From positions 116,622,001 to 116,686,000 of the forward strand of contig NC_135888.1 of assembly GCF_964194155.1 (NCBI RefSeq): a DNA stretch of 64,000 nt, given 5' to 3'. Position numbers and translations under genes: made by a program. How positions within the stretch are numbered: the stretch's first letter is position 1; each line of letters opens with the position of its first letter. Under the pieces are notes generated by a model. It had not been told where the DNA came from. It did no database searches and saw nothing but the letters and a program-made list of their open reading frames with translations. This document shows, in pieces, positions 1,456-27,025 of the stretch. The DNA comes from Cetorhinus maximus (taxonomy: Eukaryota).

Positions 1456-3291
1456 TATTGGGGGAACACAATCACATTGTTTATATCGTATATATTGGTA
1501 AATGACAAAATGTGGGTGCAATGGCCTCAAATAATGGCAACAAATTTCAGACAGATCTAAATGAAACGGGGAAATTGGCCCATATCCGACAGGTGCCCTT
1601 TAATATAGATAAACACCACTTAAGTATGGACAGCTCCATGAGATCATACCAGGACATGAAAGGTTTGATATATTTTCCATTATTTAACAAACAAAAGCCT
1701 CACTACTGACTAGAGGTGACAGCCAGAAATTGAACATCAGCTTTCTCCTCCTTTAAATGAATAAAACAACAAGATTAACCAATTTGAAGTGGAAGAGACA
1801 TCTGTGTTCGTAGGAAGATGGTGAGTGACATTTAGTAATTGGAAGTAGGCAAACCAAGTTCAGCAACAGCAATGGAGTTGCTGAGCTTTGGCAGCATGGA
1901 GTGGTGATATTAAAGCATGACAGTACTGCTGGAAAAGCTGGAGCTTTCAATGTTGTGTTGGAAGAACACTGGAACGTAGAACTTATTTTACTGTGTAGTT
2001 TCTGGGTTCTCGCAGCACAGATAGAGTGTCCCACATTTTGGCAGCACTCAGAGGGAGTGGTGAGTCCTGGGGTCTATGAAAACTGGGGTAAGTACTGGGA
2101 TTTATCAGCACTGGGGCAGATAGACTTAGTGGGAAGTGATCGTGGGGGGTTCTGCAGTCTGACTGCACTGGAGAAGAGGTTTTAGAGTGTGGAGTAAGGA
2201 TGGCAAGTGGGTGGGGAAAGGGAAGGAGGAAATATCAATATCTGGGTCCTTTGTAGGGAAATATCAGTGCCTAGGACGCAGTGGCATTGAAGTAGTCACA
2301 GTAGTCAGGGCATTGTAGCACTGAGGCAGGGTGTGCCCAGGTGATCGTGGCTAGGCTCACACCTGGCCACTAAGCATCTCCCTTTCTTTGAGTTGACAAC
2401 CATTAAGCCCTCAGTTCTAACTATAATAATCACAGCTTATATTTGCTATGCCAGCATGCATGTAGCAAATAAGACTGTTTAATGGGAATAACTTATACAG
2501 CCGAAGTCAGGCAGTATTGATAGCTAACTACTACAGGACAGGGGGTGAGATGGGATAACTGGGGAGGGAACACTGATGCCTGATAATCAAAATATTTTCA
2601 GAAAATAAAGTGAAAACTGTTCTGAATTGCATTTTGCCATCAGTTGTATAAGTTTAGAAATCTGTCCTAGGATAAAGAGTCTTTCAGTTGCAGAGAGAAA
2701 AGCTTATTGATGCTTGGTAGAAAACTGTGGAAGCTGTATACATGCATACTGTTGGATCCCTAAAGAGAAAAAGGAGACCATAACTGAGTCAAAGCAAAAA
2801 CTTTATGATGAGGCGTTTGAGAGTGGCTGTCGTAAAACAAAAATGAAATAACTAAAACGACAAAGTAACAATTAAATGCAAGAACTTGGAATATATTTGT
2901 AAATTATTTAATGTAACCTTATAAATTAGGAAATTTGACTATGAAGCACTGCATTGCATGTAGTATGTACAACCTTTTAATATTTATTAATTCTGTACTT
3001 CAGTGACAATGGTCACTGCATAGGATTTTATCTCTTCTTGTTCCCTTAATTTTGACTTGTACATTCCCTACTGGTGTTATGATTGATTCACAGTAAAACT
3101 ATGAATCAAAGTGTAATGGGAAAAGTGCAACAGGAAGGGAGTTTCAAGAAGTGTCCACTAAATGCAACACTGCTAATAGAAGTGCCCCAATACCTAAATT
3201 CTAGCCTTTCAGCACTTTGCAAGATAAATGATACCAGTCACTGGTATACTCTTATACAGATAAGTGCATGAAGATCAAACCCCTGACATAC

Positions 3292-3451
3292 CTCAGGAGA
3301 TATACATGATGGTTCATTCGCCTCACTGTCACTAGAGCTGCTCTCACTTTCAGAGTCTGATCCAGAACTACTTTCAGACCCACTGTGGCTACTGGAGTCA
3401 GCCCTAGGCGGTTCCATAACCTCATTGCTTTGTTGGGAAAGCTCAGAACTA
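3292..3451 (-). CDS. AFF4: AFF4 coding exon (Ser-rich [30 protein letters not shown]...SPE); last exon inside the window
   Basis: Acceptor ttctttttcag|T AGT TCT GAG, donor CCT GAG|gtatgt; 160 nt, phase 2 to 0. Peptide is nearly identical to the vertebrate AFF4 Ser-rich segment. The next exon (PEPPPTNKWQLDNW) was not found in 1-3291, so it lies outside the window. Confidence 0.96.
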
Positions 3452-4222
3452 CTGAAAAAGAAGAATGATTTGGTTAGTCTATTAAGAAACAAATACAAAT
3501 TTTTTAATATATAAAAATGTAAAGTGGAAGTAGTCACCTGTGTGGGTGTCTGGTGCCAGATAGTTAACATTACACTAAGTGAGATTTTCTAGCTACACCA
3601 AATATCATCTCGTTAACCAAATATGCAAAGTCACCCCACTAAGCTCATTACCATGTTTCAACCTCTAATCGCAAGTAATTTCTGCATGCACTGCATGATC
3701 TTTTTGCACTCTAATACACAAACAAGAATTTCAGGGAGCCTGTAACTTTCAGAAGGAGCAAGAATTATGTTTCAAGTTATTCTTAATGTTTCTGTATGAA
3801 GACCTAGTAAGTGAATATAATATTGTGAAAACAAGTTATTCATTAAACAGTAATTCATTAGAATTATTAGTAGTATTCTGGAAACACATCTTCATTCCCA
3901 AACGGGAAACCCCATGCAATTGCCAATCAAGTAACACATCGATATGTTAACAAAGTTGCTTATCTCAACTGCAGGATTAATCAGATAATGGTGAACACCT
4001 CAAGGATTATAATTTGCTTGATGCTGGCTAATGTCCCCAATTCTTTGTCTCAAGTTCCTGATGCAATCACAAAATGTTATTAAGTCTACGAGTAGATGAC
4101 CTGCATTCCTCCTGGTCAAAAAACGATAATAGTGCATTGTAAGGAGGCATGGATAAAGAACAAGGGAAGGGACAAATGTTTTGGTGACCTTTCTACATTA
4201 CACAGAGTTAAGTACTACCTAC

Positions 4223-4260
4223 CCTTCAAGAGTAGCCCTTGCAGGTGGTTTCCCCATATC
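4223..4260 (-). CDS. AFF4: AFF4 coding exon (DMGKPPARATLEG)
   Basis: Acceptor ttttatttctag|GAT, donor GAA GG|gtaggt; 38 nt, phase 0 to 2. It exactly bridges the flanking exons and corresponds in size and position to the human DCDKTMPRSTPGS exon (from memory). Confidence 0.88.
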
Positions 4261-5230
4261 CTAGAAATAAAAAAAAAATACAAAGATACTCATAAAATTG
4301 AGGTACATTAATACTCAAATGTAGGATACACCATTTCTTTTATACATATTCCAAAAAATTCTTTGGGAAGATGTGATGTGTCAATTCTTCACAGTACAAA
4401 TATTTTTAAATGTAGTCAGAAAACGTGTTTTTGCAATGTAGATTCAATTAAGTAGAATTCCTCCACCCAAACACCATACAACTTTAGTACACAAATAATA
4501 GAACCAGCAAAGTATTCTAAAATATGTTTCTAAACATGTACCAAACTACTGAGCAGGCAGATTGGAAGTGATGTATTAAACTATGCAAGATCGAAAAACT
4601 CATATGGGAAAACAATATTTTGTTTGATAGCAGTAAAAATGTTTCTAGTTGTACTAGTAGGTTTAGATCCAAATGCAAAACTATATCAGAAATAGCGCAG
4701 TTATGGATTTTCTTTCTCCATTATTGTCCCTATGCTTCAGTTATGACTTTACAGGAGGGAGGGAAATGAATGAAAAATTCCACTTGCAAACACAACAACA
4801 TTTTATTTTGTTTTATCAAGCTGCAAAGTAAGTCAACCGGTCAACTTATAGATCTCACAATACTTAATGCATTTCTTTTTCCATTTCCATTCCTTTGTTG
4901 TTCCTTTGCCGTCTGCTGCATGTGATCCTTTATATATGGTTATAGTTCTTATTTCCATTAACTAACAGAATCACAGAATCAGAATTGATAAATGTAAACC
5001 TTTCTTGCCAATCAAGTATCGCAAGTTTTTGGTGAGTGAAAAGATCATCCAGGGAAGTTTAACGGAAAAAATCTTGGTCCGCTCTTCAAGAAGCGAGCAA
5101 CTTATTCATATTTTTCCAGCACATTAAAGGTCTGCTGCATCAAATTTATCAATAAATTGCAAGTTAGTTTCATTAAGTAAGCAATTTCACTTTTCATACA
5201 CAGAAAACAAATGCTGGAGTGGAGGCAAAC

Positions 5231-5285
5231 CTGGTCTGCATCGCTGTCTTCACTGCTGCTAAGTTTGAGGTCATCTTCCAACATT
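5231..5285 (-). CDS. AFF4: AFF4 coding exon ((R)MLEDDLKLSSSEDSDADQ)
   Basis: Acceptor ccttttatatag|A ATG TTG, donor GAC CAG|gtttgc; 55 nt; carries the hallmark AFF-family MLxDDLKLSSSEDSD motif. Confidence 0.96.
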
Positions 5286-5921
5286 CTATATAAAAGGAAA
5301 AACAATTACCAGCATCACCACTGTAAGATGCAAGTTTTGTTCTTAGAAATTCATCTGCATCAATGAAATGTTCAGCTATACTTGGGACAGCAAGTTCCAT
5401 TTTAGTGGAGCCCTCTCCAGACAACTACAACACAAGGCAACAAAATGGGTGTGTGGGATAAAGTCTAATAAAAAAAAATGTTAAATCTGTCAGTCAGGAA
5501 TACAAAATCTCAATGATCTAATTGAATGGTGGAGCAAGCTTAACAGGCTGAAAGGCCTAGCCCTGTTTCTATCACAAATTAGGAAAATTCTCGCTCAAGG
5601 GAAAATAAAAGCCACATTTCCATGGAATATTTAGGGCTGTATTTCACTGGAAAAAAGGAGTGCGCAAAAGGGGTTCTATTTAAAGACCCATCTCACTAAA
5701 ACTTCATTAAGTAAACAGAATGAATTTAGAAATAGTTGTGGCCCAAGTATAAGATAATTACATTTTCAGAGCATAGAAAATGTTGAGTGATTGTTGGTAG
5801 GTAACGATCACAATCAAATTAGTCAACTGAATTAATCTCTTACAGTTTGAGTCATCCGAACCCTTAAGTTATTTTTAAAAATTACCAGCCATCAAGGTGG
5901 ATGACTAATATGCTGTATGTA

Positions 5922-6637
5922 CAGATAGTCCTCGCTTTAAGTCATCCTGTTTTAGGTTGTTTCGATTTAATGTTAAGTTTTTACTGGGGACGGTATTCGT
6001 GCTTAGCGTTGTGGATTTGCATTAATATGGTTTTGTGCCGGGCATGATGAAATGTAACATGACCCAATCGTTGCTACTTAGGAGCAGCCTCTCCCACTCC
6101 CCAACGCTGCCCACTTCTCTAGTTTGCAACCTCCCCAGCTTGCAGCTTACCTCCATAACCCCACAACCTGAAGCTGCTCTGACACCATAGGTTACTTCCT
6201 GCTTTTTGCTACTCATCCCCCAAAGCCTTGCTCACAGCCAGGGTTTGGGAGTGAGTCAGCAATGGCTGGGGGTGGGGGGTGCGGGAGTGTCAGCGTCAAC
6301 CAGAAGGGGAGGGCAGATGACGGTGGGGAACACAAGAGGTGGTGATCCAGAGGGCCGGAAAGCGGGAGAGGTGGCGAGTGGGAGCAACGGCTAACGGGAG
6401 GCAGGTAGAAAGAGTTAACATATATTTCTTTTATATTTTAATAAGTTATATTTAGTTACTTTGTTTACAAATATAGTAATTTAACACTGTACCTAAGCTT
6501 ACAGGGTATAATTTTCAATATTTTTCTGATAGGAACCTTTTACCTTGGTTGTAATGGGGAAATCAGATTCACTTAACATTGTTTCATCTGAAGATGCACT
6601 TTTCAGAAATGCAGCAACGTTAAGCAAGGAATTACTG
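5922..6637. mobile_element. Tigger/pogo-like non-autonomous DNA transposon (MITE)
   Basis: Starts TA|cagatagtcctcgctttaa and ends aacgttaagcaaggaattactg (reverse complement cagtaattccttgcttaacgtt), forming imperfect CAG-starting TIRs; GC-rich interior, no transposase. Confidence 0.6.
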
Positions 6638-8279
6638 CTGCTGATGCCTGACATTATCTGTACTGAAAGATTAATCAACACTGCCAAATATAAATTTGCA
6701 GTTCACAATCAGAAATTCTAAGACTGACAAAATAGTAGTACTTTAGTTTTTAAACAAACTGAAGGGACCAGGAAGCTGCTGCAATACGTGAACATATAAA
6801 AAATGAAGATGATATCTTCACTGGAAGCAAATAAGCAAACAAATATGACTGATTATAAAACTATAATGTGGATTGTAGAATATAAACTGTTAAGTAGGTA
6901 AGCTGTCTAAATCCTAAACTTTAGTGTGACAAGTACGTTATAGGAGAAAGTTATAGCATAGCACAAGATGTCTGTTCTGTACAATCCATTACTCTGTAAA
7001 ATCATGTTTTGCTTCCAACATTTGCTAGTGTCCAATTTAAACGTGCTGATTTTGATCGCCTCTTTACCCTGAGTGGAAGGGTCGCCAAGCTGACTTTGGA
7101 GTGTGGCATCTATTGAGTAGCTTTCCTGTAATTATTGGAATTTCTACTGACAAGAAACTCCGTAAATTAAACTCAGAATGGACAATAGCAGTAGCAATCA
7201 AACTGGCAGAACAAATTGCAAATTTGGAGAGAGGGGTATGCATGAAAGAAACAAAACGCAAGTCATAGGTAAGGGGGAAACTGGGGTATGCAAAGTAGCT
7301 AAATGCAGGCTAGATACTTCTAATTTAAAAAAAATTCAATTGTGATGCAGATGTCTTAATAAATGTACACAGTGATTTATAAATATCAATGTCTATTACA
7401 GTTTAAAATTCATTGCTGGCTAAACTATCTTTAAAGAAAAACGTTTTCTTATTATTATATTGGAAGAACATGGAGTTCAAAGTGATGATTACACAATACA
7501 AAGTCACAGAACGTGAAGGTACCCAACACTTATTTCGCAACAAGAATCGCAGCACTGAGTTTTCCTGATAGCATATAGGATTGGTAGTGAACTGCTCAGT
7601 ATTGTACATTGTTTTTGGAGGAAGAAATTAAATACATCACCACAAAGGATCACATACGGCAGTCTATTGCAGAGATGCCCAACCTTTAGGTCCAAGGTCA
7701 CACTTGACCCGAGCTTTGAAAATCCAACCCTAAAAGCACAAGCTATTTGTACTGACCCCCTCTGTGGGTTCTGTGTGTTTTTAGCTTTTATCTGTTAGCA
7801 CCTTGTGAAATACAAAAATCAATCGGAACAGTTACTGAAACATGCATCTATTTGGCAAAGTCAAATCCTTGCAACAGTGTGATTTACTGTTTTCTAGGTT
7901 CTCCTAGTCTGAGTGAAATCCAGATAACTGTTTCTAAAAAAACAGAATTTGCAATAAGCTTCAGTGGGCTAAACTGTCGTGGCTCAGTCAATACTATAAT
8001 TTGAATGAATGATTTGAGACCTCCCTTTTTTCAAAATCTTTGAGCACATCATCCTGGAGGTCTGGGCTCACCTTTCTCATTATTCTTTGTTTAAAGCCCT
8101 TCAGTCCAGTTTCTACTTTGCTTAGTGTCTATTGCAGCCTGACAAAAATCAACTTTTTTTTTTTGACTGTGGTATGTTCCAGTCTCCCTGTTCTCAACCT
8201 TTCTAGAGCATTTGATACATGCACACCACACTGTCCACTCCATGGTATCAACTGCATTTGGTCCCACTTTTTAAAGAAA

Positions 8280-9285
8280 TTTACTCTCTGAATGTGGGTG
8301 TCATGAGCAGGGCCAGCATTTATTACCCATCTTAAGTGTCCTGAGAAGATAATGATGGGCCACCTCCTTGAACTGCTGCAGTTTCTTCTCTTTGTAGTGG
8401 TTTGATATAACTAAGTGACTTGCTAGGCTACTTCTAAGGGCAATTGAGTATTTTTAAATTATTCGCTCACGGGGTATGGGCATCACTGGCTGGACCAGCA
8501 TTAATTGTCCAACTGTCCTTGAGAAGGTGAAGATGAGCTGCCTTCTTGAACTGCATTAGTCCATGTGGTATAGGTACACCGACATACTATTATAGAAAGG
8601 GAGTTTCAGGATTTTGACCCAACGCCTGAGAACGAATGCCGATATAGTTCCATGTCAGGATGGTATGTGGCTTTGAGGTGAAATTGCAGGTGGTGTTCCC
8701 ATGCAACTGCTGTCCTGCCATTCTAGATGGTAGAGGTCACGGGTTTGGAAGGTGCTGTCGGAGGAGCCTTAATGAAGTGCAGCAGTGTATCTTATAGATG
8801 GTACACACTGCCACCACTGTGCGTCAGTGGCAGAGGAAGTGGATATTGAAGGTGGTGGATGGGGTGCCAATCAAACAGGTTGCTTTGTCCTGGATGATGT
8901 CAAGCTTCAAGCGTTATTGGGGCTGCGCTCATCCAGAAAAAGAGAGTATTCCATCACACATCCGACTTGTGTCTTGTAAATGGTGGACATGCGTTAGGGA
9001 GTCAGGAGGCGAATTAACCATTGGAATTGTATACAAACCAAGTCAGGTAAGGATAGCAAATTTTCTTCCCTAAATGACATTAAAGAACTGTATGCGTTTT
9101 TTTTAAAAATACAAACATTCTTGACAGCTTTGTGGTCACTTTTTTAAATTATGAATTTATACCAGTTTTTTGTTCCCAGATTTCTTTTTACATTCAAATG
9201 ATCATCTTCCATGACACTTATTCTCTGCATTAACAGACTAGGCACCTGGATTACTAATATATTAATATAATTACTATATTACCAC
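8280..9285 (-). mobile_element. Cluster of 3' fragments of the tRNA-headed LINE family (see 48854) plus a related SINE remnant
   Basis: Two tandem copies of the tail 'gccagcattta..ccc..cctgagaag..g..gccttcttgaactgc' (about 8290 and 8460), followed by reverse-complement RT C-terminus and SINE-core remnants. Confidence 0.7.
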
Positions 9286-9796
9286 ACTCCAATATAATCA
9301 GCACTTTCCATGCGATCGTTTTTCCTTGTACTCCACCACTGTCATCTGTAACGTGCCACAAGGTTCCACCCAGGAACTATTAACTCCTATTCCTTATCTG
9401 CATGCTCCTCCTTATCATCCAAAGGTATAAAGTCAGCTTCCACATGCATGTTGAATACGCTCATCTCTAATTATAAAATAAGAATCCATGGTCACCACCA
9501 TACTTGTCTGGCTGCTTGGAAGGCAATGAGAATTTGTAGGAGACCTCTATATGTCCATTACCATTTTGTTCAGTTCTTGCCAAATAATCTGCACCTTAGC
9601 TCCATCCTCCCCTTTGTTACTCCTTCAGGCTCAACTTATTTGCGTGTAATCTTGGAAGTTCTGTTTGCTGTGTTTGGTAGGTGGGAACATGACGACAGGC
9701 ATGGGCATTCAGACAGGAGTACAGGAGAGGAAAATGGAGGGAACTGGGGGTGGTAGGAGGGAATAGCAAAGGGGCAGAAAATAAGTATTCAGGGCA

Positions 9797-9829
9797 GGAG
9801 AGAGAGAGAGAGAGAGAGACTAGAGAGAG
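9797..9829. repeat. (GA)n microsatellite
   Basis: ggagagagagagagagagagagactagagagag. Confidence 0.9.
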
Positions 9830-11037
9830 CAGAAAGGTGAAGGCTGTACAGTGCTAAGTTCAGAAGGTTCTACACATTCAATTCCCCCCCCCTCCCCAGG
9901 TGTTTAAAAACAAAAGAGCTTACCAACGATTTTGTGGAAAAGCCCCAGTGGTTTTCAGCACTCTTACTTCAACTAAAGCTTCCCCAAATTCACTGGGAAA
10001 GATTTAAAGAAATACTGGGTCAAAAATCCTAGAACTCTCTCCCTAGCAGCACTCAATGTACTTACAACTACATGGACTGCAGCAGTTTAAAAAGACAAGT
10101 CACAACCATCTTACAGGAAATTACGACATGGCAATGAATGTTAGACATACACGTACATGTGTGTGTCTAACATTAAAAAAAAATTCCATTTTAAGAGCCA
10201 CATTCCAGCCCTGGTCAGCATTAAGAAAAAAAATCTGGTTCTTGTATCGCACCTTCCATATCCTCAGCAAGTGTCAAAGCATTAACAGCCAAGGATTACT
10301 TTTGGGATTTCTCTGTTGTTCAGTGACAAACGCAGAGAATAATTTTTACACAATACAGTGCCAGAAACAGCACTGAGATTATGTTAATCTATTTAAGTGG
10401 CATTACTTGAAAGACTAATAATAGCCAAGAAAACCTGATGTTTTTTTGAAAAGTAACATGTGATTCCTTACTGCCACTTGTACAGATAATGCTTCTGTTT
10501 AATAGGTCGCCTAAAACATGCCACTTCCAATAACACTGCATAACAGGGCAGCATGAGCGAGGAGGGACAAAAAAAAAGACCATGAAAGAGAAAAAGACAT
10601 CTTGGTAGTTCTGCACTGCTAGATTAGGTTAGGTCAAGGAGGTGGTATGATCCCCTCAGCCCATGGTGTAACAGCACCCCCAGGAATACTTATCTCAAGC
10701 AGATTCAGAATCTGGTAAAAGTAATGACAAGAGTAGGTCATCTTCACAAAGGAAACAGACAGGCTAAACAGTTGTGACATTTAGCTGCTAATTCCCACCT
10801 ATACCACTACATGATCTGCACTACCCAACATTACTGCAGATGGCACCTGAACACCTTTTATAGAAGAAGTTGGGAAAGTGACCTAGCTCTTTAGGCAATG
10901 GAGAAAGAATAGCAAAAAGTATGGAGACTGTTCTATAGCATCATCATTTGCAACTCAGGTCCAAGCACCAAACAAATATACTGTATACCACACAAGTCTG
11001 TTTTCTATGTTAGAATGAAAACCCAATGCAGACTTAC

Positions 11038-11064
11038 CTTGAAGCAGTTTGGTCAGTTTCAGAG
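11038..11064 (-). CDS. AFF4: AFF4 27-nt micro-exon ((C)SETDQTAS(R))
   Basis: Strong acceptor cttctttctttttaaatag|C and consensus donor TCAAG|gtaagt; phase 2 to 2, no stop. Needed to keep the frame open, because the direct 13274-to-5285 junction reads TG|A = stop. Confidence 0.85.
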
Positions 11065-13273
11065 CTATTTAAAAAGAAAGAAGGTGTTAAATCATAATGT
11101 TTATAAGCTATTAAATTTGGTACCTAAGTTTTGCTTCATACATTTTTAGTGGTTTGGAATCCAAAGTAGTTTTAAAAAAGTAAAAAGCTACATTTGACAC
11201 TTCTCTATTTCTGTTCTCTTCATTTAAGAACACATTTTATCTACAAACGCATGCCAATATTGCTGAATTGCATGATTTAAAACATAAGAAAACCAAACCA
11301 ATCAAGTTTCAATTATGGCATTGAAATTCTTTGTTGCCAGGTCCTCTTGTTTGCTGTGTAATCCTGGTACTATTTCAGTTATTATTGTTACTAATGTACT
11401 CAATACTTAATAAAAACTGAATCAAGAACTGCAAACTTAGGGACAATAAAAAATCATTGTAGCTTCCACCAGTGGGTTACATTGGTGTATAACTGGCTGT
11501 TGGAAAATCAAAGTGGAGGCAGTGGAATCCTCATAATTCATAATGCACTATCAGGCTGCCCAGAAGATTAAATATTTAAAATTGATGGTTGTGAGAGGCC
11601 AATTGAAGAGGAGGGTGGCACTTAAATGATGATTAGGTTCACTATAAACCAGTTAATTATTTTAAAGCATGACAAAATACATTCGCCTGGAAGCCCTCCA
11701 GCAACTTTATTGCTCTTTTGTAAATCCATTCAACCACAGGAGGCATCTAACTTGCAAATGCTTGGCAATGACATCACTGTTTTCCTGCCTCAATAGAGTT
11801 AAAGTCATTGTAGCATTGGATGAGACCATTCGGTACATCGAGTCCAAACTGGCTCTCTGTAGAGGAATCCTATTAGTCCCATTCCCGCACTCTACAATAA
11901 TCATCAATAGATGCAGCACTGATTAGGACTTGAACATGGAGGGTAGTGTAACATGATCTCCATGGCTTGTTGGGTCACTCTACAGTCTGAAATAATGGGA
12001 ACTTCCATAACCACTGCCAACAGAGGCTTCGGATTGTAGCTGACACTTATACAGCTCAACACCAGGCCACACACTGCATTTACCCTTTAGTTGTTGGAGA
12101 GATCCTCCTCACCTAATAGTTCCCTACTTGCAATCACTTGACTTGTGTTCAGTTATGCGCAGAATAATCACCAATAGGCAAGCGATGCACATTTTAATTT
12201 CTCCAACAAGTTGTTAGCAGCTGCACTCTCTCAAATACCATTTTCACTTTAACATATATCAAGTGTAAACTAAAATTTTGAATGGTGTGAAGCCCACAAT
12301 TAATATAGATCCCATGATTTGGGAGATGCAAGGGAAGTTGAGACCAAGATTTTGACGACAGGTTCCCATATTGCAAGTTTACAATCTTGATCACAACAGT
12401 AGGGGAGAGAACAATTAGAAGTAACAATTCTAATGCCATTTTCATATAGCATTTGCTGCAATTACAAAGATGATTTATCTGTTTGGATGGAATTTATTTT
12501 TAATGGGGAAGAGGAGAAAGAGATGGCAGTTTAAAAACAAAAGTAAATCAACAGGAACTTTAAGTGGAGTATTTGTTTTTCTTGAGTGTCCCCTCCAGAA
12601 GATAAGGACATTGACATCATAACAACAGACTTGAAACTTTACAAGAGATACCTTTAGTCATATTTATTGACAATTGAAAAGCATGGAAATTAATTGAAAT
12701 ACAAATTATACAGTATACAAATATTAAAATAATTAAATCAGTAAAATTACAAAATGGTTTAACATTTTTAAAACTACCTTTCATATCATCTGGCTTCACA
12801 CACCTGAGTTATGCACACATATTTTCAAAACTGGTGCCTGCCACAACCCTTTGCCAGTAGCCAAGTGTAAAACAAAAATATCTGGAACAGGCCAATTCTA
12901 ATATGAACAGGCTGCAGAATCATTAAATGCACCCTTCCCAGGATAAGTATATTCCCCGACACTGCATGTTGCCAAAACAATTTATAAACACAGCATCAAG
13001 ATCATCTACTGGTTGTGGTACTATACTGTTGAGATGACTATTAGCTGACAAAGAAACTGGACACATTCCAGCCTAAGGCTTACTTGCAGTTTGCATACTT
13101 CATTATACATCTTCCTCAGTCAAAAATATGCTGAAAGAAGAGGGAAGGATTCCTCCATGTTCTAAATGCACTAAAATTGTAAACCCAATCTTTATACAAA
13201 AGATTTTATGATTACTGTAAGAGTGTGCAGAGAAATTCTTGTTCCAAAATAAGGCAAAATGAAAATTACTTAC

Positions 13274-13325
13274 CATTTTGCTTGGTGATGACTGGAGGTT
13301 GATTTTGAAGTTGCATTGTATCTCT
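13274..13325 (-). CDS. AFF4: AFF4 coding exon ((K)RYNATSKSTSSHHQAK)
   Basis: Acceptor ttttaattgcag|AG AGA TAC, donor AAA TG|gtaagt; 52 nt, phase 1 to 2; matches human KRYNPSKTSNGHQSK. Confidence 0.92.
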
Positions 13326-13769
13326 CTGCAATTAAAATCTCATTATTAAAAAAATATAGTTCTAAACACTACCAAAAACAGTTCAAGGCCTTCAATTATG
13401 TGCAATAGATTTCTACCTAACTTTTAAGGTACTGGACAAAGGCTCTCTTAATTATCAAGTGAGCATGTCTGGAGAGTAGGTGAGTCACAGACTAAGCAGG
13501 TGCCGGTTCAATGCTTGACCTGTGCTGAATTAACTGATCTTAATTGGGTAGTGCTGGAAGCACTCCAATTGGTCTCAGTAACCTAGGCTGAGGGTGAAAA
13601 TAATTTTGTTGTTCTCATTGCTAACCGCTGCCCTTTGTGGTGTAATCACTGGATGAGGGTAGAATCAGGTTTGTCCTTGGTGCTCATCACAGTTGAACAT
13701 TCTATCCACATTCAATAGCTCAGCAGGGAGTCAGAGTTCAAGAGGGAGAAGGGAGGTTGGGGAAGGCAG

Positions 13770-14410
13770 ACACACTTGCTTTGATATAGGTTTGGAGGAA
13801 ACTGGGGTTCAGGGAAGAAATTCCAGAGCTTTTGGCCAACTAAAGGCACAGTGATCAATGGTGGAGTGAAGGAAGTGGAGAATGTGTCGGAGGTCAGAGT
13901 TCGACTGCAGTGTTTTCATAAATGTAGGCTGGAGGAGGCTACAAAGATAAGGGGCGGTGGTGCATAAGGCTAATAAGGGATCTGACTGCACGAGAAACAT
14001 GGAGACAAAGAAGCTCATTGAGAGCAGGGATGATGGTTGAGCAGGAGTTGCGTTTTGGATGAGCTTAAGTTTAAGAAGGGAGGAGAGGAGGCTGGCCAGG
14101 AGATCATTGGAACAGTCAGTCATAAGGTGACAATTCTGAACAAGATTTAACAGCAAATGGGCTGAGGGAGAGATGGGCAATGTTACAGAGCTGGAGGTAG
14201 AAGTAGTTAGTCTTTTTGTGGCAGAGGACATATATTTGGGTGCTCAGCTCAGGATCAAATAGGGTACCAAGGCTTCACAGAGTTTGATTTAGCCTGAAGC
14301 ATTGGTCCCAAAAGGGGATGGAATCAGTGGTTAAGGGAGTGAAGTGTGAGGGATAATGAGGCAAAAAGACAATGGCTTCGGCATTCGAAAAGCTAATTTG
14401 GAGGAATTTT
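13770..14410 (-). mobile_element. Decayed L2 LINE 3' fragment
   Basis: Minus-strand translation includes KLKLIQNATPA and 'CAFS..A.EF'; shares sequence with the L2 copy at 44550-45900. Confidence 0.6.
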
Positions 14411-14517
14411 TCTATCACACGGATAAAAGTAGAATCAAGCAAGGGAAATCCAATGTATGGAAGGGAAATCCATAGTTGGATAATACAGGAAAGTTTTTGA
14501 AAAAAGAATATAGTGTC

Positions 14518-15690
14518 AACCTTGGCTCAGTGGTAACATCCTTCCAAAATTAGGTTGAGGATTCACCCCCCTTTTCAGAGACTTGAGCACATAAATTAGG
14601 TCAGCATTATAATGTAGTACTGAAGGAAACACACAGAAATAGGAGGTCATTCAACTGTGGTGCCAGTCAGTTAGATCAATGCTGATTTGTATCTCAGCAC
14701 AATTTACTTGCCTTTGCTCCATACCTCTTGATACACTCCACCTAACAAATATTTATTGATCTCAGTGCTGAAAGTTTCAACTAACCAGCATCAGCATCCA
14801 CCACTTCATGGAAAGAAGTATCTGGATTTCCAGTGCCCTGTGTGAGAGAAAAAGTGCTTCTTGATGTCACCCCTAAAAGGCCTAGCATTAATTTAAGATT
14901 GTTCCTTTGTTCTGGATGGAGTGTTGGACAGAGACGACATCTTTGGGATGAGATGTTAAGCATAAGTTACAACCGCCCTCGCTAGTGGACATAAACGATT
15001 CATAGTGTTAAACTTCTGACAACAAGATGAAGTAGGAAACCAATCGTTTACTTAATACTAGATTTATTTACAGAATGCAACATTGTAAATGCCTTCCTCT
15101 ACCCAACACCTTTTGTTCCACTAGTATGTGCTTAAGGTACTTAAATCAATCAGTGACTTCCACTTATATATCCTTAATCTTAGTAATACAATTAACATAC
15201 CATTAATACATAGTACTATTCAGAGAGCAGGGGGGGTTATCCAAGAAGTCCTGACCTATGTTTGTCCCTCAACACCAGTAAATCAATTTATCTGGTCTAA
15301 AAATAGAAAGTGCTGGAAAAATTCAGTAGGTCTGGCGCCTGTGGAGAGAGAAACAGAGTTAATACTTCAAGTCGAACATTAGCCATGGGCTGAATGGCCT
15401 CTTTCTGTGCTGTAACTTTATGGTTATATGGCTCTCTCTCCACAGATGCTGCCCGACCTACTGAGTTTTTTCACCACTTTTTTTATTTCAGATCTATAGC
15501 ACCCGCAGTATTTTGCTTTTGTTTCAGTTCATCTAGTCATTTATCCTTGCTGTTCATGGGACTATGCTGCGGACAAATTGGCCACTATATTTATCTTATG
15601 TCAGTGTCTAGATTTCAAAATTATTAATTAACTGATGGGCTTTATCATGTTCTGTGGAAATTAAAGGCACTACATAAATGCAAGCTTGTT
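14518..15690 (+). mobile_element. Deu-type SINE fragmented by nested insertions (CR1 3' piece at about 14640-14915 on the minus strand; Penelope-derived palindrome at about 15299-15525)
   Basis: tRNA-like head cttggctcagtggta, Deu-like core 'tctttgggatgagatgttaagc' and tail 'aaaggcactacataaatgcaagc' occur in order, colinear with the copy at 1115-1455. Confidence 0.55.
15299..15525. mobile_element. Short palindromic Penelope-terminus-derived element
   Basis: Arm 'tgctggaaaaattcagtaggtctggc..ctgtggagagag' is inverted as 'ctctctccacagatgctgcccgacctactgagttttttcacca'; related sequence at 23230-23430 and 24577-24660. Confidence 0.6.
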
Positions 15691-16988
15691 TTTTCTTTCA
15701 ATCTTTGGTCAACATTTACATTTCAAGTATATTAATACTTTAGATTTAACCAGGTAAATAACACATTAAATAATTATGAAGTGTTTATTATTTTGACCTA
15801 ATTACCCCTAGCATTATTGGATATTTCAGTGCCACTATGCATTCTTTATAATCAACAGGAACAGATACATTCCTGGGTAAACAATCTTATACCACCAGTT
15901 TCGTTCCTTAATCGATAAGGAGGTGTTAACAACTAGCCACTAAGAAAGAAATATTGTCTATCAACTTCATATTTTAGCACCATTTTCGCTTGCTCCAACC
16001 ACTCGTGATTACCGGCATGTGACCAGTGTCCAGTTCTTTGCTAACTGTTGTCCTTTAACTAATTAATAGGCATGTTGAGAGCAGTCTCTTAATTACTTGG
16101 CCTCAAATTTTTCCTTCCTGCTGTGAAGAAGTGCCTAGCTGCCCTGGGCTTTCACCACCCGACCTTGCCAGATGGTGGGCATTGCAGAACTAAATTTACA
16201 CCTGACCATGAGTTATACTGCCAATCTGACTTGGAATAAAAGGCTCATCAGATTCTGAAGACAAATTATCCCTACAATCTTAATGTAGCCTGAAAGTTGT
16301 AAATGAATATGGGCAACTGTTAACCATTAAGATAATTTAGTTTTTAAATCACTCCACTTAGGTAGTGAATATATGTTTCATTTTATTATTGTGACAAGGT
16401 TTTAAAACTATTAGTGGATTCCCATAGAAGTACTCATGGGGGTACATGAGAGCACATGGTAGAATTTTAATATCTGCTGGGCGTGCAGTAAATGGATAAT
16501 AGTGGCATTTCCTGATTGAAGTTACACCCCAAAGTAGTCAGAAAAGAGTGTTAGAATTTCAGTGCTACAGACAAAGTATAAAGCTATTATATACCATGAG
16601 CAAACACAATTAATCAATCTTTTAAGGTGTAGGTGTCGCTTTCAAAGATTAAAAATGGTTAGCTAATGTTAAGTAAACACTGGTTAAGCTCATAGACAGG
16701 TCAGGTATGATTGTGTTTCTCTGGTGTTTTTCTGTCACTGCAGTTTGTACATTCCAAGTAACTGCCTTTACTCCTCATTACCTTTTCGCAGAGAAATTTC
16801 ATTAGCGTGCCATGACTTAAGTATGCAGTCTTTGTTTAGATTATGATAAAAGAAGATCTTCCATGGTTTGGCTGTCAGCAAATTGGATGATATGTAATTT
16901 TCTACTGACAGGAGCATCACACCATGTAATGAAGACTAATATGGATAAATTAATAAACATCCCATTTTAAATAGTTTTAAATACTTAC

Positions 16989-17025
16989 TCTGCCCTGGTA
17001 CATTGTAGTTAACATGCTGAGATTC
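16989..17025 (-). CDS. AFF4: AFF4 coding exon (ESQHVNYNVPGQ)
   Basis: Acceptor ttatctttttag|GAA TCT CAG, donor CAG A|gtaagt; 37 nt, phase 0 to 1; matches human ESQQSNFGTGEQ. Confidence 0.92.
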
Positions 17026-18076
17026 CTAAAAAGATAAAAGATAATAAAGATGTGAAATGTACTTCAACTAAAATGATCATTCTAGGACTGGAAATGGAAC
17101 AAACTTCTCCTTTACCCATAGATGTTCCGCTGACTATCCAAATTTTAAGCAATATAGGCTTCTAAAATCCACTGCCATTCAGGAAATTTTCATAGTGTAC
17201 TTTACCTGCAAGATCGTGTACATATTCTGTAGGGTTTTAATCACAATACATGTTGGAAAACAGTGCTGGAAGTAGTTTCTTAAATTTACTCACAATTAGG
17301 ACCTCTTTCAAACCCAGTACAATGAACTTTCCACTCACCAAAATCTGTTAATTGAGCCTTAACCAGAGAAAATAAACCCTAAAAAGAATTGAAATGCACC
17401 TTTGGTAGGGACAAGAATCTAGTCAGTGGGGTAGATAAGAGCAGCTACAGGACAAAAAAAGGATCAGATGCAGCATGAAAGCAAAAGGAAATGGAAGAGA
17501 GAAAGAAACACACCAAGGTTAATCCCAAACTGTAGTGATTTTCAATTTGCAAAAAATGCAAAGTAGTGAAGCTTCCTCAAACTAGTTAGTAAGTGTGCTT
17601 CTAGATTTGCTGCAAAATGAATGCATCATCTTCAATACAAACTGACATCTGTACATAATCACAGGTTCCCCTTAGCTGTGCATTAGTGGAAATATTCACT
17701 TTACCAATGCATTTGAGCTTCCCATCTCAGGAATGGATTTACATTTGTTCAAATAAATCATTAATATCATCAACATTAAAATGTAATGTGTCAAATTTTA
17801 AAGTTTATATATTGCACTAAAAGGATACAAAGATACTGAAGTTCCCTTGCATTGTGAATTCCTCTGCAATGCCTTCCTCACTCTTGCAGTGTGCTTGTCC
17901 TTTGACATTTCTTCTTTTTCTCTCACACTGAGTAGTTCCTTTTTCTTCTCCCACATCACGGATTCACAGCTACATTATTTCTTTCCTACATCACACCAAT
18001 TCCACTGTTCTTGTACTCTTCTCTTGACCCCAGTTTTAAATATTCCATGTCTGTAGAAGTAAACACAGATACCCAC

Positions 18077-18163
18077 CTTTGTTGGAAATGGAAATTTTGA
18101 TGGCTCAGCCTTGCACGGTGTATGAATTGCTGTCAGTGGTGGTGGCCAGGAGTGTGTCATTTC
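18077..18163 (-). CDS. AFF4: AFF4 coding exon ([29 protein letters not shown]; ELL-binding region)
   Basis: Acceptor gctgtag|GAA ATG, donor ACA AAG|gtgggt; 87 nt; peptide nearly identical to the AFF4 ELL1/2-binding segment. Confidence 0.97.
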
Positions 18164-18689
18164 CTACAGCACACAGTGTACAATGGGTCAGAATTGTATT
18201 CCATGACAGATGACGCAATAATAAATCCTAACCAACAAGTAATTTATACAGAGCAGGCTTGATGGGCTGTGTGGTCTACTCTTGCTCCTATTTCTTATGT
18301 TATATTCTGATAACAGCTCAAAAATCTTGTAGCTTCAACTACCTAATACATTAAAAAGCTTACTTTTGCACACACACCCTGGCAAAATTTTTCATTATAA
18401 ATTTATATAATCAAACTTATAATGGAGAGTGATGTATAATTACACCTTCCCACCAATTAGAACATAAGTCTACATAATCAATTTACATTATAAATATGGG
18501 CACCAGAATTTACAAAAGATATATAAGTACAGAATTTTAACTAATGTGGGGGCTGAATCACAGTGCGCTCGGGTCAAATTATCCCCTGCCTTCTAACAGC
18601 ACTTCACTTAAATATTGAACTTGGTCTTTGACTTCCCATGTATAATCCAACAGGGGATCAACTAACTAACTAAAGATGGATATTTGGTG

Positions 18690-20258
18690 GTGCAGAACTT
18701 GAGTATTGCTGAAAAAGAGAGACGTTTTTTGTCTTGGACTCAGCAGTTCAATTTCGCAAGAAAATACCAAATGTCAGGGGAAATAACATATTTATATTGT
18801 ACGAAAAGAGAGTGCTGATTGGTTGACAAGTGGACTCCAGTAGCGGCGTTGCCATGGTGAATGCACCAGTTGATGGTGACTGACAGTTAACTGCCAAACA
18901 TTGTTTGAAATTTAAACAGACATCTTGACTCCAATTGGTCAAGACATTCCCCTGAGGAAAAAAACAGCGAATGGCTGTCACTTATTTTGTTTATCTGAAA
19001 CAAGTACAGTGTGTGCACATATTCTGTCTGCAAAGAACAGGGCCCTGTGTGTTAATATGTGTAGCTTCCAGCACATGTAAATGTACCACACGGCAAGCCC
19101 GACTGACAATCTTAAATTGGCTGTCAGCGTAATTCTTAACACACTGCGGATTATTTAGCAATTGACACCCAACCATGGAATCACATCCAATGTTAGACAC
19201 TGTATTTTGAGTTTTGCAAGCACGGACTGGTTGGGTATGGTCTGTACCTTGTCTGTTACAAAAGCGGAAGGGATATGCTGTTTGATATGATCCTCCGGTC
19301 TTTAGGACGTACGGCCTACATACCTAGCATCACACTAGCACTGAAATTCATACACCACATTACTCATTTGTGGGATAGTGGAAACGTCATTTTGGCTTGA
19401 TGGCAGCTTCCTGTTAGTGGCAAAAACCATTTGTGTTGCTACTGCATAGTAGCAGCGTGAAACAGTTAACTTCATTTGTTGCTCAAATTTTTGCGATACC
19501 TTGCTCTTTCAAGGAAATCTTAGGGGAACTGGGCACTTTTCAGGGCTGAAAGTGACATCCTTTGGGCCCGTTTATGAGTTTGCACGATATAAAGTGTGAA
19601 GTGATCCATCAGGGTAGCCATTATTATTCTGCAAGATGCCTTTGATGCACCCTATTTCAGCACGAAGCTTGCATGGTGAGCAAATGGCTCATTTACGAGG
19701 TTGCCATTAGGACCAATCTTAAAGCGTGTGGAACTATAAGAGTCCCAACGAGTGTATCGACCAGTGAAGGTAGGCTTGCGGTAGACCATGGTAGAAAATC
19801 TCCTGGCAAATTTCTCAACTAATACGTGAAGGAAAGGGAGTTCATTTGACTGCTCCAATTCAAAGGTGAATTTAAGCACAGGATGGAACCCATTAAGACA
19901 TGTAAGGAAATTATGACTTGCAGCTGTGGATTTAAATATAGCAAATGTACCATCCACGTATCTGATATATAAAAGGGGTAGGAGGTTGGGTGTCATTCCA
20001 TTGAAGACATATTTCTCATGGAACCCAGCAAATATATTTGAGAGAGCTGGGCTTAAAAAGGGGATCCCATGGCAACATCATCTATTTGGACATACATGGT
20101 GTCATTAAAGCTGAAATTTAAGTTGCCGAGTTCATAAGCTCAATGAATACTGATTCACGCAATGGTGGTGGGTCTAGATCGTCATGGTATAGTGCTGCAG
20201 TGCAAATATCTGTGGATCCCTTAAGTGGAACATTGATGAATAGGCTGGCAATGTCAAT
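18690..20258 (-). mobile_element. Penelope-like element (RT plus GIY-YIG endonuclease), decayed, 5'-truncated
   Basis: Minus-strand motifs DIASLFINVP, MGSP, YIRYVDGTF, FTFELEQSNELPFLHVLV, VYRKPTFTGRY, VYEFQC.CDARYVGRT and LEATHI. Confidence 0.92.
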
Positions 20259-21478
20259 GATATTTGTTATATTTAAATCTGCAGCTGCATGTAATAATTC
20301 CTTGCATATCTTAATGGGTTCCATCTGGCGCTCAAATTCACCATTGAAATGGAGCAGTCAAATGAATTCCCTTTCCTTGACGTACTAGTTGAGAAATCCG
20401 CTAGGGGGTTCTCTACCATGGCCTACCACAAACCTACCTTCACTCGTCAACACACGCTGTGGGACTATAGTTCCACTCGCTATAAGATTGGCCTTATCGG
20501 GAACCTCGTAAATAGGGCCTGAGCCATTTGCTCACCACGCAAGCTTGATGCTGAAATAGGCATACCCTGAGGGATAATGGCTACCCTGATCAGATCATTT
20601 CACGCTGTATATCGTGCAAATTCATGAACAGGCCTAAGGCCTGGAAAAGTGCCCAGTCCACCTCAGGTTACCCTGGAAAGGCAAGGTATCTCAAATATTT
20701 GAGCAACAAGTGAAGCTAGCTGTTTCATGCTGCTACTATGCAGTAGCAACACAGGTGGTTTTTGTCACCAACAGGATGCTGCTGTCAAGCCAGAAAGGCG
20801 TTCCCGCTATCTCACAAATGAGTAACATGGTGTATGAATTTCAGTGTTAGTGCGATGCCAGGTACGTAGGCCGTACGTCACAAAGACTGGATTCCATCAA
20901 ACAGCATGTCCATTCCGTCGTTTGCAACTGTCAAGGTAAGGGCTGTATCCAACCAGCCCATGCTTGCAAAACTCAAAAGTGTCCAACTTTAGGTGTGATT
21001 CTGCGATCAGACAACATTTGCTAAATAATCCTCAGTGTACTAAGAATTATGATGACAACCAATTTGAGATCATCAATCGGGCTCGCAGTGTGGCGTGTGT
21101 GTACTGGAAGCTACATATATTAATAGACAGGGCTCTGTTCTTTGAAGACAGAAAGAACATGGACACACATTGCACCTGTTTCAGCTAAACGAAATAAGTG
21201 TCAGCCATTCATTGGTTCATTCCCCAGGGCAATGTTTTGACCAGAGTCAAGCTGTCCAGCTTAAGTTTCAAACAATGCTTGGCAGTTAACTGTCAGCCAC
21301 CATCAACTGGTGCATTCTCCATGGCACTGCCTCTACCAATCAGAGTTCACTTGCCAACTAATCAGCACACTCTTCTCATGCAGTATCTATTTCCCCATAC
21401 AATGGTATTTCTTGTGAAGTGTTCTGATTAGTCCAAGTTGAAAAGCTTTTTCAAAAAGTATCTCTTTTTCAGCAAAAT
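20258..21478 (+). mobile_element. Penelope-like element 3' portion, inverted relative to 18690-20258
   Basis: Reverse complement of about 18700-19950, including LPFLDVLV, YHKPTFT, GIY-YIG-type VYEFQC..YVGRT and SAIRQHLLNNP. Confidence 0.92.
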
Positions 21479-22282: not shown

Positions 22283-22327
22283 CTTTAGAATCTCATCCAC
22301 ACAGCTGGCATCACCTGACACAGAAGA
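22283..22327 (-). CDS. AFF4: AFF4 coding exon (SSVSGDASCVDEILK)
   Basis: Acceptor aatttacag|TCT, donor CTA AAG|gtatgt; 45 nt, phase 0 to 0; matches human ASASGDVSCVDEILK. Confidence 0.95.
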
Positions 22328-24902: not shown

Positions 24903-25730
24903 CTCCACTTGCTGAGATGGGATTTTTAGTTTTGAGAGATGTACTTTGTTGCCTGACTTCATTTCTGCCAGACTACTGCCATGAGACTGGTTACCATAAT
25001 GCTCAGAAGGAATCTTTGGTTCTAATGATTCATTAGGGGCTTGATCCTGTCCATCCATAGGCCTTACATATGCAGTGGGTTTCTGTAACATTGAGTTGGG
25101 TTTGGACATCAATGCAGGAGTGAATGACTGCGAAGAATGCTGCCCACTGGCAGGAAATGTGTGAACACGTGATGGAGAGTCCCAGGTAGCATCCAGGTCT
25201 CGAGGAGATTTTGACCGATGCCGCTCCTTACTATGGTGGTCACTTCCTTGAGATCTGGAATGATTAGAACTTAAAGAAGAAGAAACTGCAGGTGGTTTAG
25301 CTGGACTGACCGAATGGGATTTTGAATGTTCAGATCCATGTTGGCCACTTCTCTTACGACTGCTGTATGAATCACGGTCGTGCCTCTGGCTACTGCTACT
25401 GCCAGTATTGCTGCTGCCACCACTAAGTCTTTGGCTACTGCCATGGCTGCTTTGCAACCCTGAACTTGACCTCTTCTGTGACTGTGAAGAAGTACCAGGA
25501 GCAGAAGTTGCTGGACCCACTGGAGTCCACTTACTACTTTGGTGAGATGTACCGTGTCTCTGCTCACCAAAAAAAGGTTGGTCAGGTTTCTCATCTGTAG
25601 TTGATGGAACTGTCCCTTTGGGTATGCCAATGAGCTTTTGAAGAGATTTATCTCCTATCAAGTCTTTCATTTCATCATAATTTCCCAACATGCTCTGGAT
25701 TCTGCTAGAAAGTTTATCTTCCGTTCGCCC
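24903..25730 (-). CDS. AFF4: AFF4 large coding exon ([23 protein letters not shown]...[12 protein letters not shown]...LKIPSQQVE)
   Basis: Acceptor aaatacag|GGG CGA, donor GTG GAG|gtaagc; 828 nt. Covers ORF 24849..25691. Contains AFF4-specific [11 protein letters not shown] and SKSPRD segments and the SIAH degron PTAYVRP. Confidence 0.98.
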
Positions 25731-26898: not shown

Positions 26899-27025
26899 CT
26901 GTACTTTATACGGCTCAGCAAAGAGAGGGGAATTTCCAGCAAAAGTCTCTTCATTCTGAATTCCTTGATTTCTTCGCTCACGTTCTTTCATACGTAGTAC
27001 ATTTCTGTCTTCACGGTTCATGTTT
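26899..27025 (-). CDS. AFF4: AFF4 coding exon ([42 protein letters not shown]; P-TEFb/cyclin T1-binding N-terminus); canonical ATG at 27021-27019
   Basis: Acceptor ttttattatcag|AAAC ATG AAC CGT, donor GTA CAG|gtacag. [19 protein letters not shown] is the AFF4 N-terminus. Missed by the ORF track because it is under 60 aa. Confidence 0.97.

What the first reader, a model, noticed from the sequence alone, without database searches (positions are those of the whole stretch)
11038..11064. 27-nt AFF4 micro-exon whose skipping creates a junction stop codon (TG|A)
Seen in sequence: the upstream exon ends in TG (13275-13274) and the downstream exon begins with A (5285). Inclusion reads TG|C...AG|A (Cys-SETDQTAS-Arg). 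Skipping preserves frame but produces TGA with many downstream junctions. Human AFF4, from memory, joins the two flanking exons directly (GHQSKSMLKDDL). Inference: a frame-neutral micro-exon has become obligatory, or acts as an on/off switch through NMD. The alternative product would be a truncated AFF4 keeping the P-TEFb, SIAH and ELL sites but lacking the ENL/AF9-binding and C-terminal domains.
Basis: partly seen in the sequence, partly recalled or inferred. Interest (0 to 1): 0.7.

Follow-up and report, generated by a model that had tools for sequence, protein, structure and literature searches.

The report
Ancient AFF4 micro-exon with latent stop
A 27-base exon of the shark AFF4 gene is real and has counterparts in most jawed vertebrates; skipping it alone would create a stop codon, but that is likely a tolerated by-product of an exon that is nearly always kept together with its neighbours, not a regulated switch.

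Summary
In detail: minus-strand exons 13325-13274, 11064-11038 and 5285-5231 join as TG|C..AG|A, and direct joining gives TGA at codon 398. A spliced contig from a close relative carries both inclusion junctions; no skip-only contig was laid. The exon is not a shark invention: its peptide is in chimaera, ray-finned fish, coelacanth, turtles and birds, where skipping is in frame. The TG comes from a Ser-to-Cys change seen in 18 of 19 named shark and ray species and missing in Heptranchias. The splicing choice actually seen is larger: a 171-base block of four exons, including this one, is skipped in frame in 4 of 4 runs laid and in models of 22 of 23 named cartilaginous fishes. All 14 partial versions of the block give premature stops. 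Verdict: a 3n 'essential exon' with the stop on the junction, a described class (PMC11062102); likely passive (0.65). A regulated NMD switch is unsupported but not excluded, because contigs and protein models hide NMD targets.

The parts
11038..11064 (-). 27-nt AFF4 micro-exon, phase 2-2, (C)SETDQTAS(R); third exon of the four-exon block
   Evidence: spliced contig in run X3; 51 of 51 block-bearing cartilaginous-fish proteins
11065..11100 (-). acceptor region: branch-point-like yTnAy at -26, pyrimidine tract 0.82, AG; no TGC in -30..-3
   Evidence: motifs are recalled consensus, matches only
11032..11037 (-). donor GTAAGT after AAG, 8 of 9 matches to the U1 consensus, highest of 15 mapped donors
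13274..13325 (-). 52-nt upstream exon, phase 1-2, ends TG (13275-13274); second exon of the block
5231..5285 (-). 55-nt downstream exon, phase 2-0, starts with A; encodes MLEDDLKLSSSEDSDADQ; fourth exon of the block
   Evidence: loose end at 11038
16989..17025 (-). 37-nt exon, phase 0-1; first exon of the block
   Evidence: loose end at 13325
18077..18163 (-). 87-nt exon before the block ([15 protein letters not shown]); its donor joins 4260 when the block is skipped
   Evidence: joint 4259-18076 in 4 of 4 runs
4223..4260 (-). 38-nt exon after the block
3292..3451 (-). 160-nt AFF4 exon; tandem acceptor gives isoforms differing by one Ser
22283..22327 (-). 45-nt AFF4 exon
24903..25730 (-). 828-nt AFF4 exon (identifies the gene: 99% to lamniform shark AFF4 models)
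26899..27025 (-). 127-nt AFF4 exon near the N-terminus

Best explanation
This is an old jawed-vertebrate AFF4 micro-exon inside a four-exon, 171-base block that cartilaginous fishes splice in or out as a whole, and the junction stop is likely a tolerated by-product of a Ser-to-Cys change in an exon that is likely almost never skipped alone. Shown: the exon, its two junctions in RNA, the in-frame block skip in RNA, and that each of the 14 partial versions of the block ends in a premature stop. Inferred: the upstream exon ended TC in the ancestor (Ser in chimaera, coelacanth, reptiles, birds, rodents, and TC at the matching exon end of the AFF1-like paralogue in this genome); TC became TG in the shark-ray ancestor while the next codon went from Cys to Ser; because the exon has strong splice sites and is kept whenever the block is kept, nothing selected against TG|A. 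Rare skip errors would be removed by nonsense-mediated decay, so the stop would act as an error filter, not as a dial.
For: Peptide present in chimaera (2 of 2 block-bearing records), coelacanth (2 of 3 records), 100 of 120 ray-finned records (7 shorter inserts, 2 without, 11 unscored) and 72 of the 88 new reptile, bird, rodent and coelacanth members. In none of those scored is the junction residue Cys, Trp or Tyr, so high inclusion does not need the stop. Heptranchias has Ser there and still includes the exon in 2 of 2 block-bearing models. Donor 8 of 9, best of 15; tract 0.82; no TGC. In X3 one unbroken 201-nt contig (171+30) spans the block; bin depths over the upstream exon (29.4 and 15.6) equal that contig alone; of 14 laid records none fits a skip-only arm. 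In X2 bin depths over micro-exon and upstream exon both imply about 21.5. Block skip joint in 4 of 4 runs and in 38 of 92 proteins, 22 of 23 named species, chimaera and Heptranchias included, so it is older than the TG. 0 of 84 new short proteins end at the predicted stop.
Against: Cys is kept in 47 of 51 records and 18 of 19 named shark and ray species, in a region where neighbouring residues vary, which selection on the TG would also produce. The orthologous exon is a true cassette in annotations of reptiles and birds: Apteryx rowi, Caretta, Podargus, Pelecanus and Accipiter have models with and without it, so skipping can happen. Full-length protein models cannot show a skip that ends in a stop, so 51 of 51 is circular for the 47 Cys records; contigs drop rare variants; only 2 of the 7 runs laid showed the block at all, both from one relative (organism A), none from the window's own species. 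The ray-finned search used a query that has the insert, which favours records with it. The first base of the downstream exon is known only for the window and organism A (A in both).
Confidence: 0.65

Rival explanations
1. Selected lock: TG is kept by selection because it closes the last in-frame partial route through the block, so AFF4 is made either with all 57 residues or with none; or because G at -1 strengthens the upstream donor.
For: With TG|A all 14 partial combinations stop early; with TC the micro-skip would be open (the TC case is inference). Cys in 18 of 19 named shark and ray species. The donor has 7 of 9 U1 matches with TG and would have 6 with TC (inference).
Against: Heptranchias and chimaera skip the block and lack the TG. 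Conservation of Cys can be selection on the residue: bony vertebrates and chimaera keep a Cys one codon later. In rays the downstream first base is unknown; G would give Trp.
Confidence: 0.15
2. Regulated switch: skipping of the micro-exon alone is induced in some tissue or state and lowers AFF4 through nonsense-mediated decay.
For: The stop is 55 nt or more before 7 mapped junctions. The orthologue is skipped in frame in some reptile and bird models. AFF4 level matters: stabilising variants cause CHOPS syndrome (PMC9125161, passages). NMD would hide the product from my data.
Against: No skip-only contig, strongest donor in the gene and no TGC motif of the SRRM4 type or TGCATG within 300 nt (motifs recalled). 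TG missing in Heptranchias and outside sharks and rays. Most exons of this gene (10 of 14 internal mapped) already give frameshifts when skipped, so an NMD outcome alone is ordinary.
Confidence: 0.12
3. The skip transcript escapes decay and yields a stable 397-residue AFF4 that binds P-TEFb and ELL but lacks the C-terminal parts and competes with full-length protein.
For: The fragment keeps the stretches that match PDB chains 4imy (7-80) and 5jw9 (318-370) and loses 938-1203.
Against: Many downstream junctions predict decay (50-55 nt rule in PMC11062102). No such short protein among 84 new hits (weak search).
Confidence: 0.04
4. The stop is avoided in practice: when the micro-exon is skipped the upstream donor uses an in-frame AG inside the downstream exon (5258 or 5255) or another exon (10210-10157).
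For: Both AGs and the 54-nt candidate keep the frame open.
Against: None of 92 cartilaginous-fish proteins shows such a junction; the internal AGs lack a pyrimidine tract; no contig lies there as an exon.
Confidence: 0.04

Closest known systems
Essential exon of length 3n with the PTC formed on the exon-exon junction (PMC11062102, Fig. 2D text, passages read; general class in PMC6547761, passages and section 18)
   Same: Normally included, multiple of three, stop appears at the junction made by skipping, many junctions downstream.
   Different: The reviewed cases of unproductive splicing are regulated events with measured NMD response; here no skip transcript or regulator is shown, and the exon sits in a larger all-or-none block.
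AFF4 micro-exon of birds, turtles, crocodiles (SCESNQTD), coelacanth (SCDSDQKN) and ray-finned fish (ACDDQPT and variants) in public gene models
   Same: Same position, between the KRY.. exon and the MLxDDL exon; similar C/S-E/D-x-D/N-Q peptide.
   Different: 21 nt (7 residues added) in birds against 27 nt here; junction residue Ser, Ala, Thr or Pro, so skipping is in frame and appears in some models.
Neural SRRM4-type micro-exons (recalled; the TAF1 6-nt example is in PMC9125161, passages)
   Same: Length within the usual 3-27 nt range (recalled), frame-preserving, in a disordered region of a transcription factor.
   Different: No TGC before the acceptor and strong sites; skipping would not give a second protein; tissue pattern unknown.

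Membership tests
3n essential exon with junction PTC | [quoted passage not shown] | tested here: met
   27 nt, phase 2-2; included in the X3 contig and in 51 of 51 block-bearing proteins
3n essential exon with junction PTC | Skipping forms a stop codon on the new junction | tested here: met
   TG|A = TGA at codon 398
3n essential exon with junction PTC | Stop lies more than 50-55 nt before a downstream junction | tested here: met
   7 mapped junctions 55 nt or more downstream
Regulated unproductive splicing (AS-NMD switch) | Skip isoform exists in RNA | tested here: inconclusive
   Not seen in 7 runs laid, of which 2 show the block; contigs drop rare variants
Regulated unproductive splicing (AS-NMD switch) | Skip isoform rises on NMD inhibition and varies with tissue or regulator | not testable with these tools
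   No raw reads or perturbation data were offered
Regulated unproductive splicing (AS-NMD switch) | NMD-causing configuration conserved across species | tested here: inconclusive
   Cys (TG) in 18 of 19 named shark and ray species, absent in Heptranchias, chimaera and scored bony vertebrates; downstream A known in 2 organisms only
Regulated unproductive splicing (AS-NMD switch) | Conserved intronic flanks around the exon | not testable with these tools
   No orthologous genomic DNA reachable
Neural SRRM4-type micro-exon | TGC motif just upstream of the acceptor (recalled) | tested here: not met
   No TGC in -30..-3
Neural SRRM4-type micro-exon | Inclusion restricted to neurons | not testable with these tools
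   Tissues of the runs are not given
AFF4 (AF4/FMR2 family member 4) | Orthology and AF-4 plus AFF4_CHD domains | tested here: met
   99% to shark AFF4 models; PF05110 and PF18876 on P0005

The most novel reading that the evidence does not exclude
One base change in the shark-ray ancestor turned an ancient optional micro-exon into a lock that makes a four-exon AFF4 module all-or-none: cells make AFF4 either with or without the 57 residues that carry the conserved SSSEDS phosphorylation cluster, every intermediate is destroyed, and regulated skipping of the micro-exon alone sets the dose of the long form.
Probability: 0.15. Interest if true: 0.55.

Novelty: new member of a known kind. Interest (0 to 1): 0.25.

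Why it matters
As it stands it is a clean, datable example of how a frame-neutral exon becomes essential through one substitution at a split codon, with a natural control (Heptranchias, chimaera) in which skip rates can be read without NMD bias. The more useful by-product is the in-frame four-exon skip: a common AFF4 isoform of cartilaginous fishes that lacks the MLEDDLKLSSSEDSD motif, whose serines match by pattern and numbering the human S387/388/389/392 cluster reported as a CDK9 target (PMC10092763, passages; the match is my inference). If the switch reading were true it would add a splicing-decay layer to the control of a dosage-sensitive elongation scaffold.

Tried and rejected
No RNA holder on record was listed; the runs used are guessed RNA, kept as contigs, from relatives. 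(3200-18300) was crowded by repeat hits: 133 joints were not shown, so micro-exon junctions could only be inferred there from bin depths. X8 and X11 had no cover over the micro-exon or the upstream exon. In one search, X13, X20 and X21 gave nothing on the exons, so the downstream first base in more distant species stayed unknown. A pattern scan of metagenome contigs for vertebrate AFF4 DNA found 0. A search of shorter proteins found no product ending at the predicted stop, but short products can hide inside clusters of full-length ones (P0182, P0183 do) and clusters were listed only in part (15 of 22, 15 of 16, 15 of 19). Paralogues: three found in G000; only the one on C1 was read further; its exon assignment rests on splice patterns and peptide likeness, and whether it has a micro-exon was not settled. 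A link of the downstream motif to LEDGF/TND binding was looked for and not found. Paper searches on AFF4 with microexon, NMD, exon skipping, shark, truncated or splice variant listed nothing on this exon; the library lacks most subscription papers and splicing databases. The supplement of PMC6547761, which may give the share of 3n exons that cause a stop, was not seen. The genome-wide chance rate of junction stops was not computed; my estimate of a few percent of symmetric phase-2 exons rests on recalled splice-site base frequencies. Two look-ups of earlier scan findings returned nothing.

Full report
Observation. The three exons are on the minus strand exactly as described. The upstream exon (13325-13274, 52 nt) ends AAA TG before gtaagt, the micro-exon (11064-11038, 27 nt) lies between a pyrimidine-rich AG and gtaagt, and the downstream exon (5285-5231, 55 nt) begins with A. 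Inclusion reads HQAK-C-SETDQTAS-R-MLEDDL; direct joining reads HQAK-stop. The gene is AFF4: the 828-nt exon is 99% identical to lamniform shark AFF4 models. The window lies on contig C10 of a 3.99-Gb genome. A spliced walk of protein P0132 maps 16 exons over the window and the 30 kb beside it, with the micro-exon in phase 2-2. The stop is codon 398, and 7 mapped junctions lie 55 nt or more downstream. The closest RefSeq records (P0005, P0132) may come from this same assembly, so I do not count them as independent.

RNA. No run on record as RNA was listed; 22 runs were offered, all as contigs, and 7 were laid. In X3, from a close relative (word share 0.73), one 201-nt contig joins 11064 to 13274 at CT..AC, runs from 11038 into the first bases of exon 5285 (starting with A) and from 13325 into exon 17025. 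Its length is the 171 nt of four exons plus 30, so it is one unbroken arm; depths over the upstream exon equal that contig alone, and none of the 14 laid records fits a skip-only arm. In X2, bin depths over the micro-exon and the upstream exon both imply about 21.5 (my arithmetic). Contigs drop rare variants, so this shows inclusion and does not show absence of skipping.

The event actually seen. A joint from 18076 to 4259, skipping four exons (37+52+27+55 = 171 nt, 57 residues, in frame), stands in 4 of 4 runs (three organisms), at depth 115.2 beside 74.5 for the inclusion contig in X3 and 27.7 beside about 21.5 in X2; in X8 and X11 it is in the main long contig (depths are rough). Of 92 cartilaginous-fish AFF4 proteins, 51 have the block, 38 skip it whole and 3 could not be scored; the skip is in 22 of 23 named species, chimaera included. 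Translating all 16 combinations of the four exons shows that only all-in and none stay open; 12 partial forms shift the frame, the micro-exon alone is read in another frame with an inner TGA, and the micro-skip ends on the junction TGA. The skipped block holds MLEDDLKLSSSEDSD. Human AFF4 has a phosphorylated cluster S387/388/389/392, with S388 reported as a CDK9 site (PMC10092763, passages); the spacing fits SSSEDS with Met at 379, the number in insert-less bird records. That match, and with it the absence of the insert in the human reference protein, is my inference; no named human sequence across the junction was retrieved.

Age of the exon. The peptide is in Callorhinchus (SCEPDQAASR), coelacanth (SCDSDQKN in 2 of 3 records), gar, bichir and teleosts (100 of 120 records with five or more residues, 7 with three or four, 2 without, 11 unscored; the query had the insert, which favours such records), and reptiles and birds (72 of 88 new members with it, 12 without of which 2 are rodents, 4 unscored). 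In the first search 56 of 91 tetrapod and coelacanth records lacked it, many of them partial bird models of one kind. Five reptile or bird species have models both with and without it, so there it is an in-frame cassette, at least in annotation. Eight of 8 rodent records lack it.

Age of the stop. The split codon is Cys in 47 of 51 block-bearing records and in 18 of 19 named shark and ray species; Heptranchias has Ser-Ser-Glu and chimaera Ser-Cys-Glu. No scored bony-vertebrate record has Cys, Trp or Tyr there. The AFF1-like paralogue on C1 has a matching exon that ends TC and a downstream exon that starts G ATG, and paralogous proteins mostly read S-MLEDDL. The simplest history, an inference that assumes fixed junction positions, is TC in the ancestor, a swap of Ser-Cys to Cys-Ser in the shark-ray ancestor, and one loss in Heptranchias. 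The A that completes TGA is known only for the window and organism A; Arg in other sharks and in one skate allows A or G if the micro-exon ends AG, and Gly in most rays allows any base.

Splice signals. The micro-exon donor has 8 of 9 matches to the U1 consensus, the best of 15 mapped donors; the tract is 0.82 pyrimidine; there is no TGC before the acceptor and no TGCATG within 300 nt (motifs recalled, simple counts, not a trained model). One other 3n candidate exon (10210-10157) and two in-frame AGs inside the downstream exon exist but appear in no protein or contig examined.

Mechanism. Most likely (0.65) the exon is kept whenever its block is kept, so the TG|A junction is seldom made and was free to arise; rare errors would be decayed. 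Ten of the 14 internal exons mapped already shift the frame when skipped, so being essential is the usual state in this gene. Selection for the TG as a lock or a stronger donor (0.15) fits the 18 of 19 count but not the loss in Heptranchias, and the count is also what selection on a cysteine would give. The regulated switch (0.12) has no positive evidence, but every data type used here is blind to NMD targets, and the orthologue is skipped in some reptile and bird models. A stable 397-residue product (0.04) would keep the stretches matching PDB chains 4imy and 5jw9 and lose the C-terminal domain; none was found among 84 new short proteins, a weak test.

Known kinds. [quoted passage not shown] PMC6547761 (passages and section 18) says that 3n exons generally do not introduce a stop. 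PMC12322889, PMC13247117, PMC11740969 and PMC9125161 were seen as passages only; other papers only as search listings. The structural criteria of the class are met here; the criteria for regulation are inconclusive or untestable. Searches listed no paper on this exon or on the four-exon skip; the exon itself is already in public gene models.

Verdict. Real feature, known class, probably passive: new member of a known kind, interest 0.25. The four-exon isoform is the better lead.

Noticed in passing
window 17025-5231 (minus strand), joint 18077 to 4260: In-frame skip of four exons (57 residues) removes the conserved MLEDDLKLSSSEDSD motif; seen in 4 of 4 runs laid, in models of 22 of 23 named cartilaginous fishes and in one stork model (P0194).
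   Followed up: partly
window 13275-13274 and 11064-11061: Adjacent-codon swap: Ser-Cys-Glu in chimaera and birds, Cys-Ser-Glu in most sharks and rays, Ser-Ser-Glu in Heptranchias and in one turtle (P0217). A cysteine is kept within one position in most lineages.
   Followed up: partly
window 10986-11071, run X3: At 80% likeness the bin depth is 36.1, above the 23.4 that the inclusion contig explains; at 85% there is no excess. An unlisted record of 80-85% likeness lies there; not identified.
   Followed up: no
window 3451-3448: Tandem acceptor 3 nt apart gives the one-serine difference between paired isoforms (X1/X2, X3/X4) in many sharks and rays.
   Followed up: no
window 29400-34200 (+), with 30178-31288 (-): Broken LTR-retrotransposon-like element: by eye a zinc-knuckle and protease-like part, then an integrase-like piece before the RT and RNase H pieces (Gmr1-like order, recalled); Pfam confirms only RNase H (33614-34180). 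A LINE-type RT fragment (PF00078) lies inside on the other strand.
   Followed up: partly
window 18806-19946 and 20262-21374: Inverted pair of about 1.15 kb at 80% identity inside an AFF4 intron; RT/endonuclease-like wording in its ORFs by eye, no Pfam match for the piece tested.
   Followed up: no
window 8240-9250 and 15300-15800: Very high-copy short repeats that draw most contigs of the relatives' runs.
   Followed up: no
proteins P0489, P0491-P0493, P0495, P0496, P0500, P0503: Killifish, livebearer and ricefish AFF4 records have only 1-4 residues at the micro-exon position, suggesting shrinkage or loss there, as in rodents.
   Followed up: no
proteins P0513, P0515-P0519, P0527: Several teleost models keep the micro-exon peptide but lack the following MLEDDL exon and more, another way of dropping the same motif.
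   Followed up: no
protein P0540: A record filed under a bacterial assembly is nearly a mammalian AFF4 fragment, probably host contamination.
   Followed up: no
G000 C8:136476452, C1:97195723, C7:66518607: Three AFF paralogues located by their EMTHSW-type exon; only C1 was read further.
   Followed up: partly
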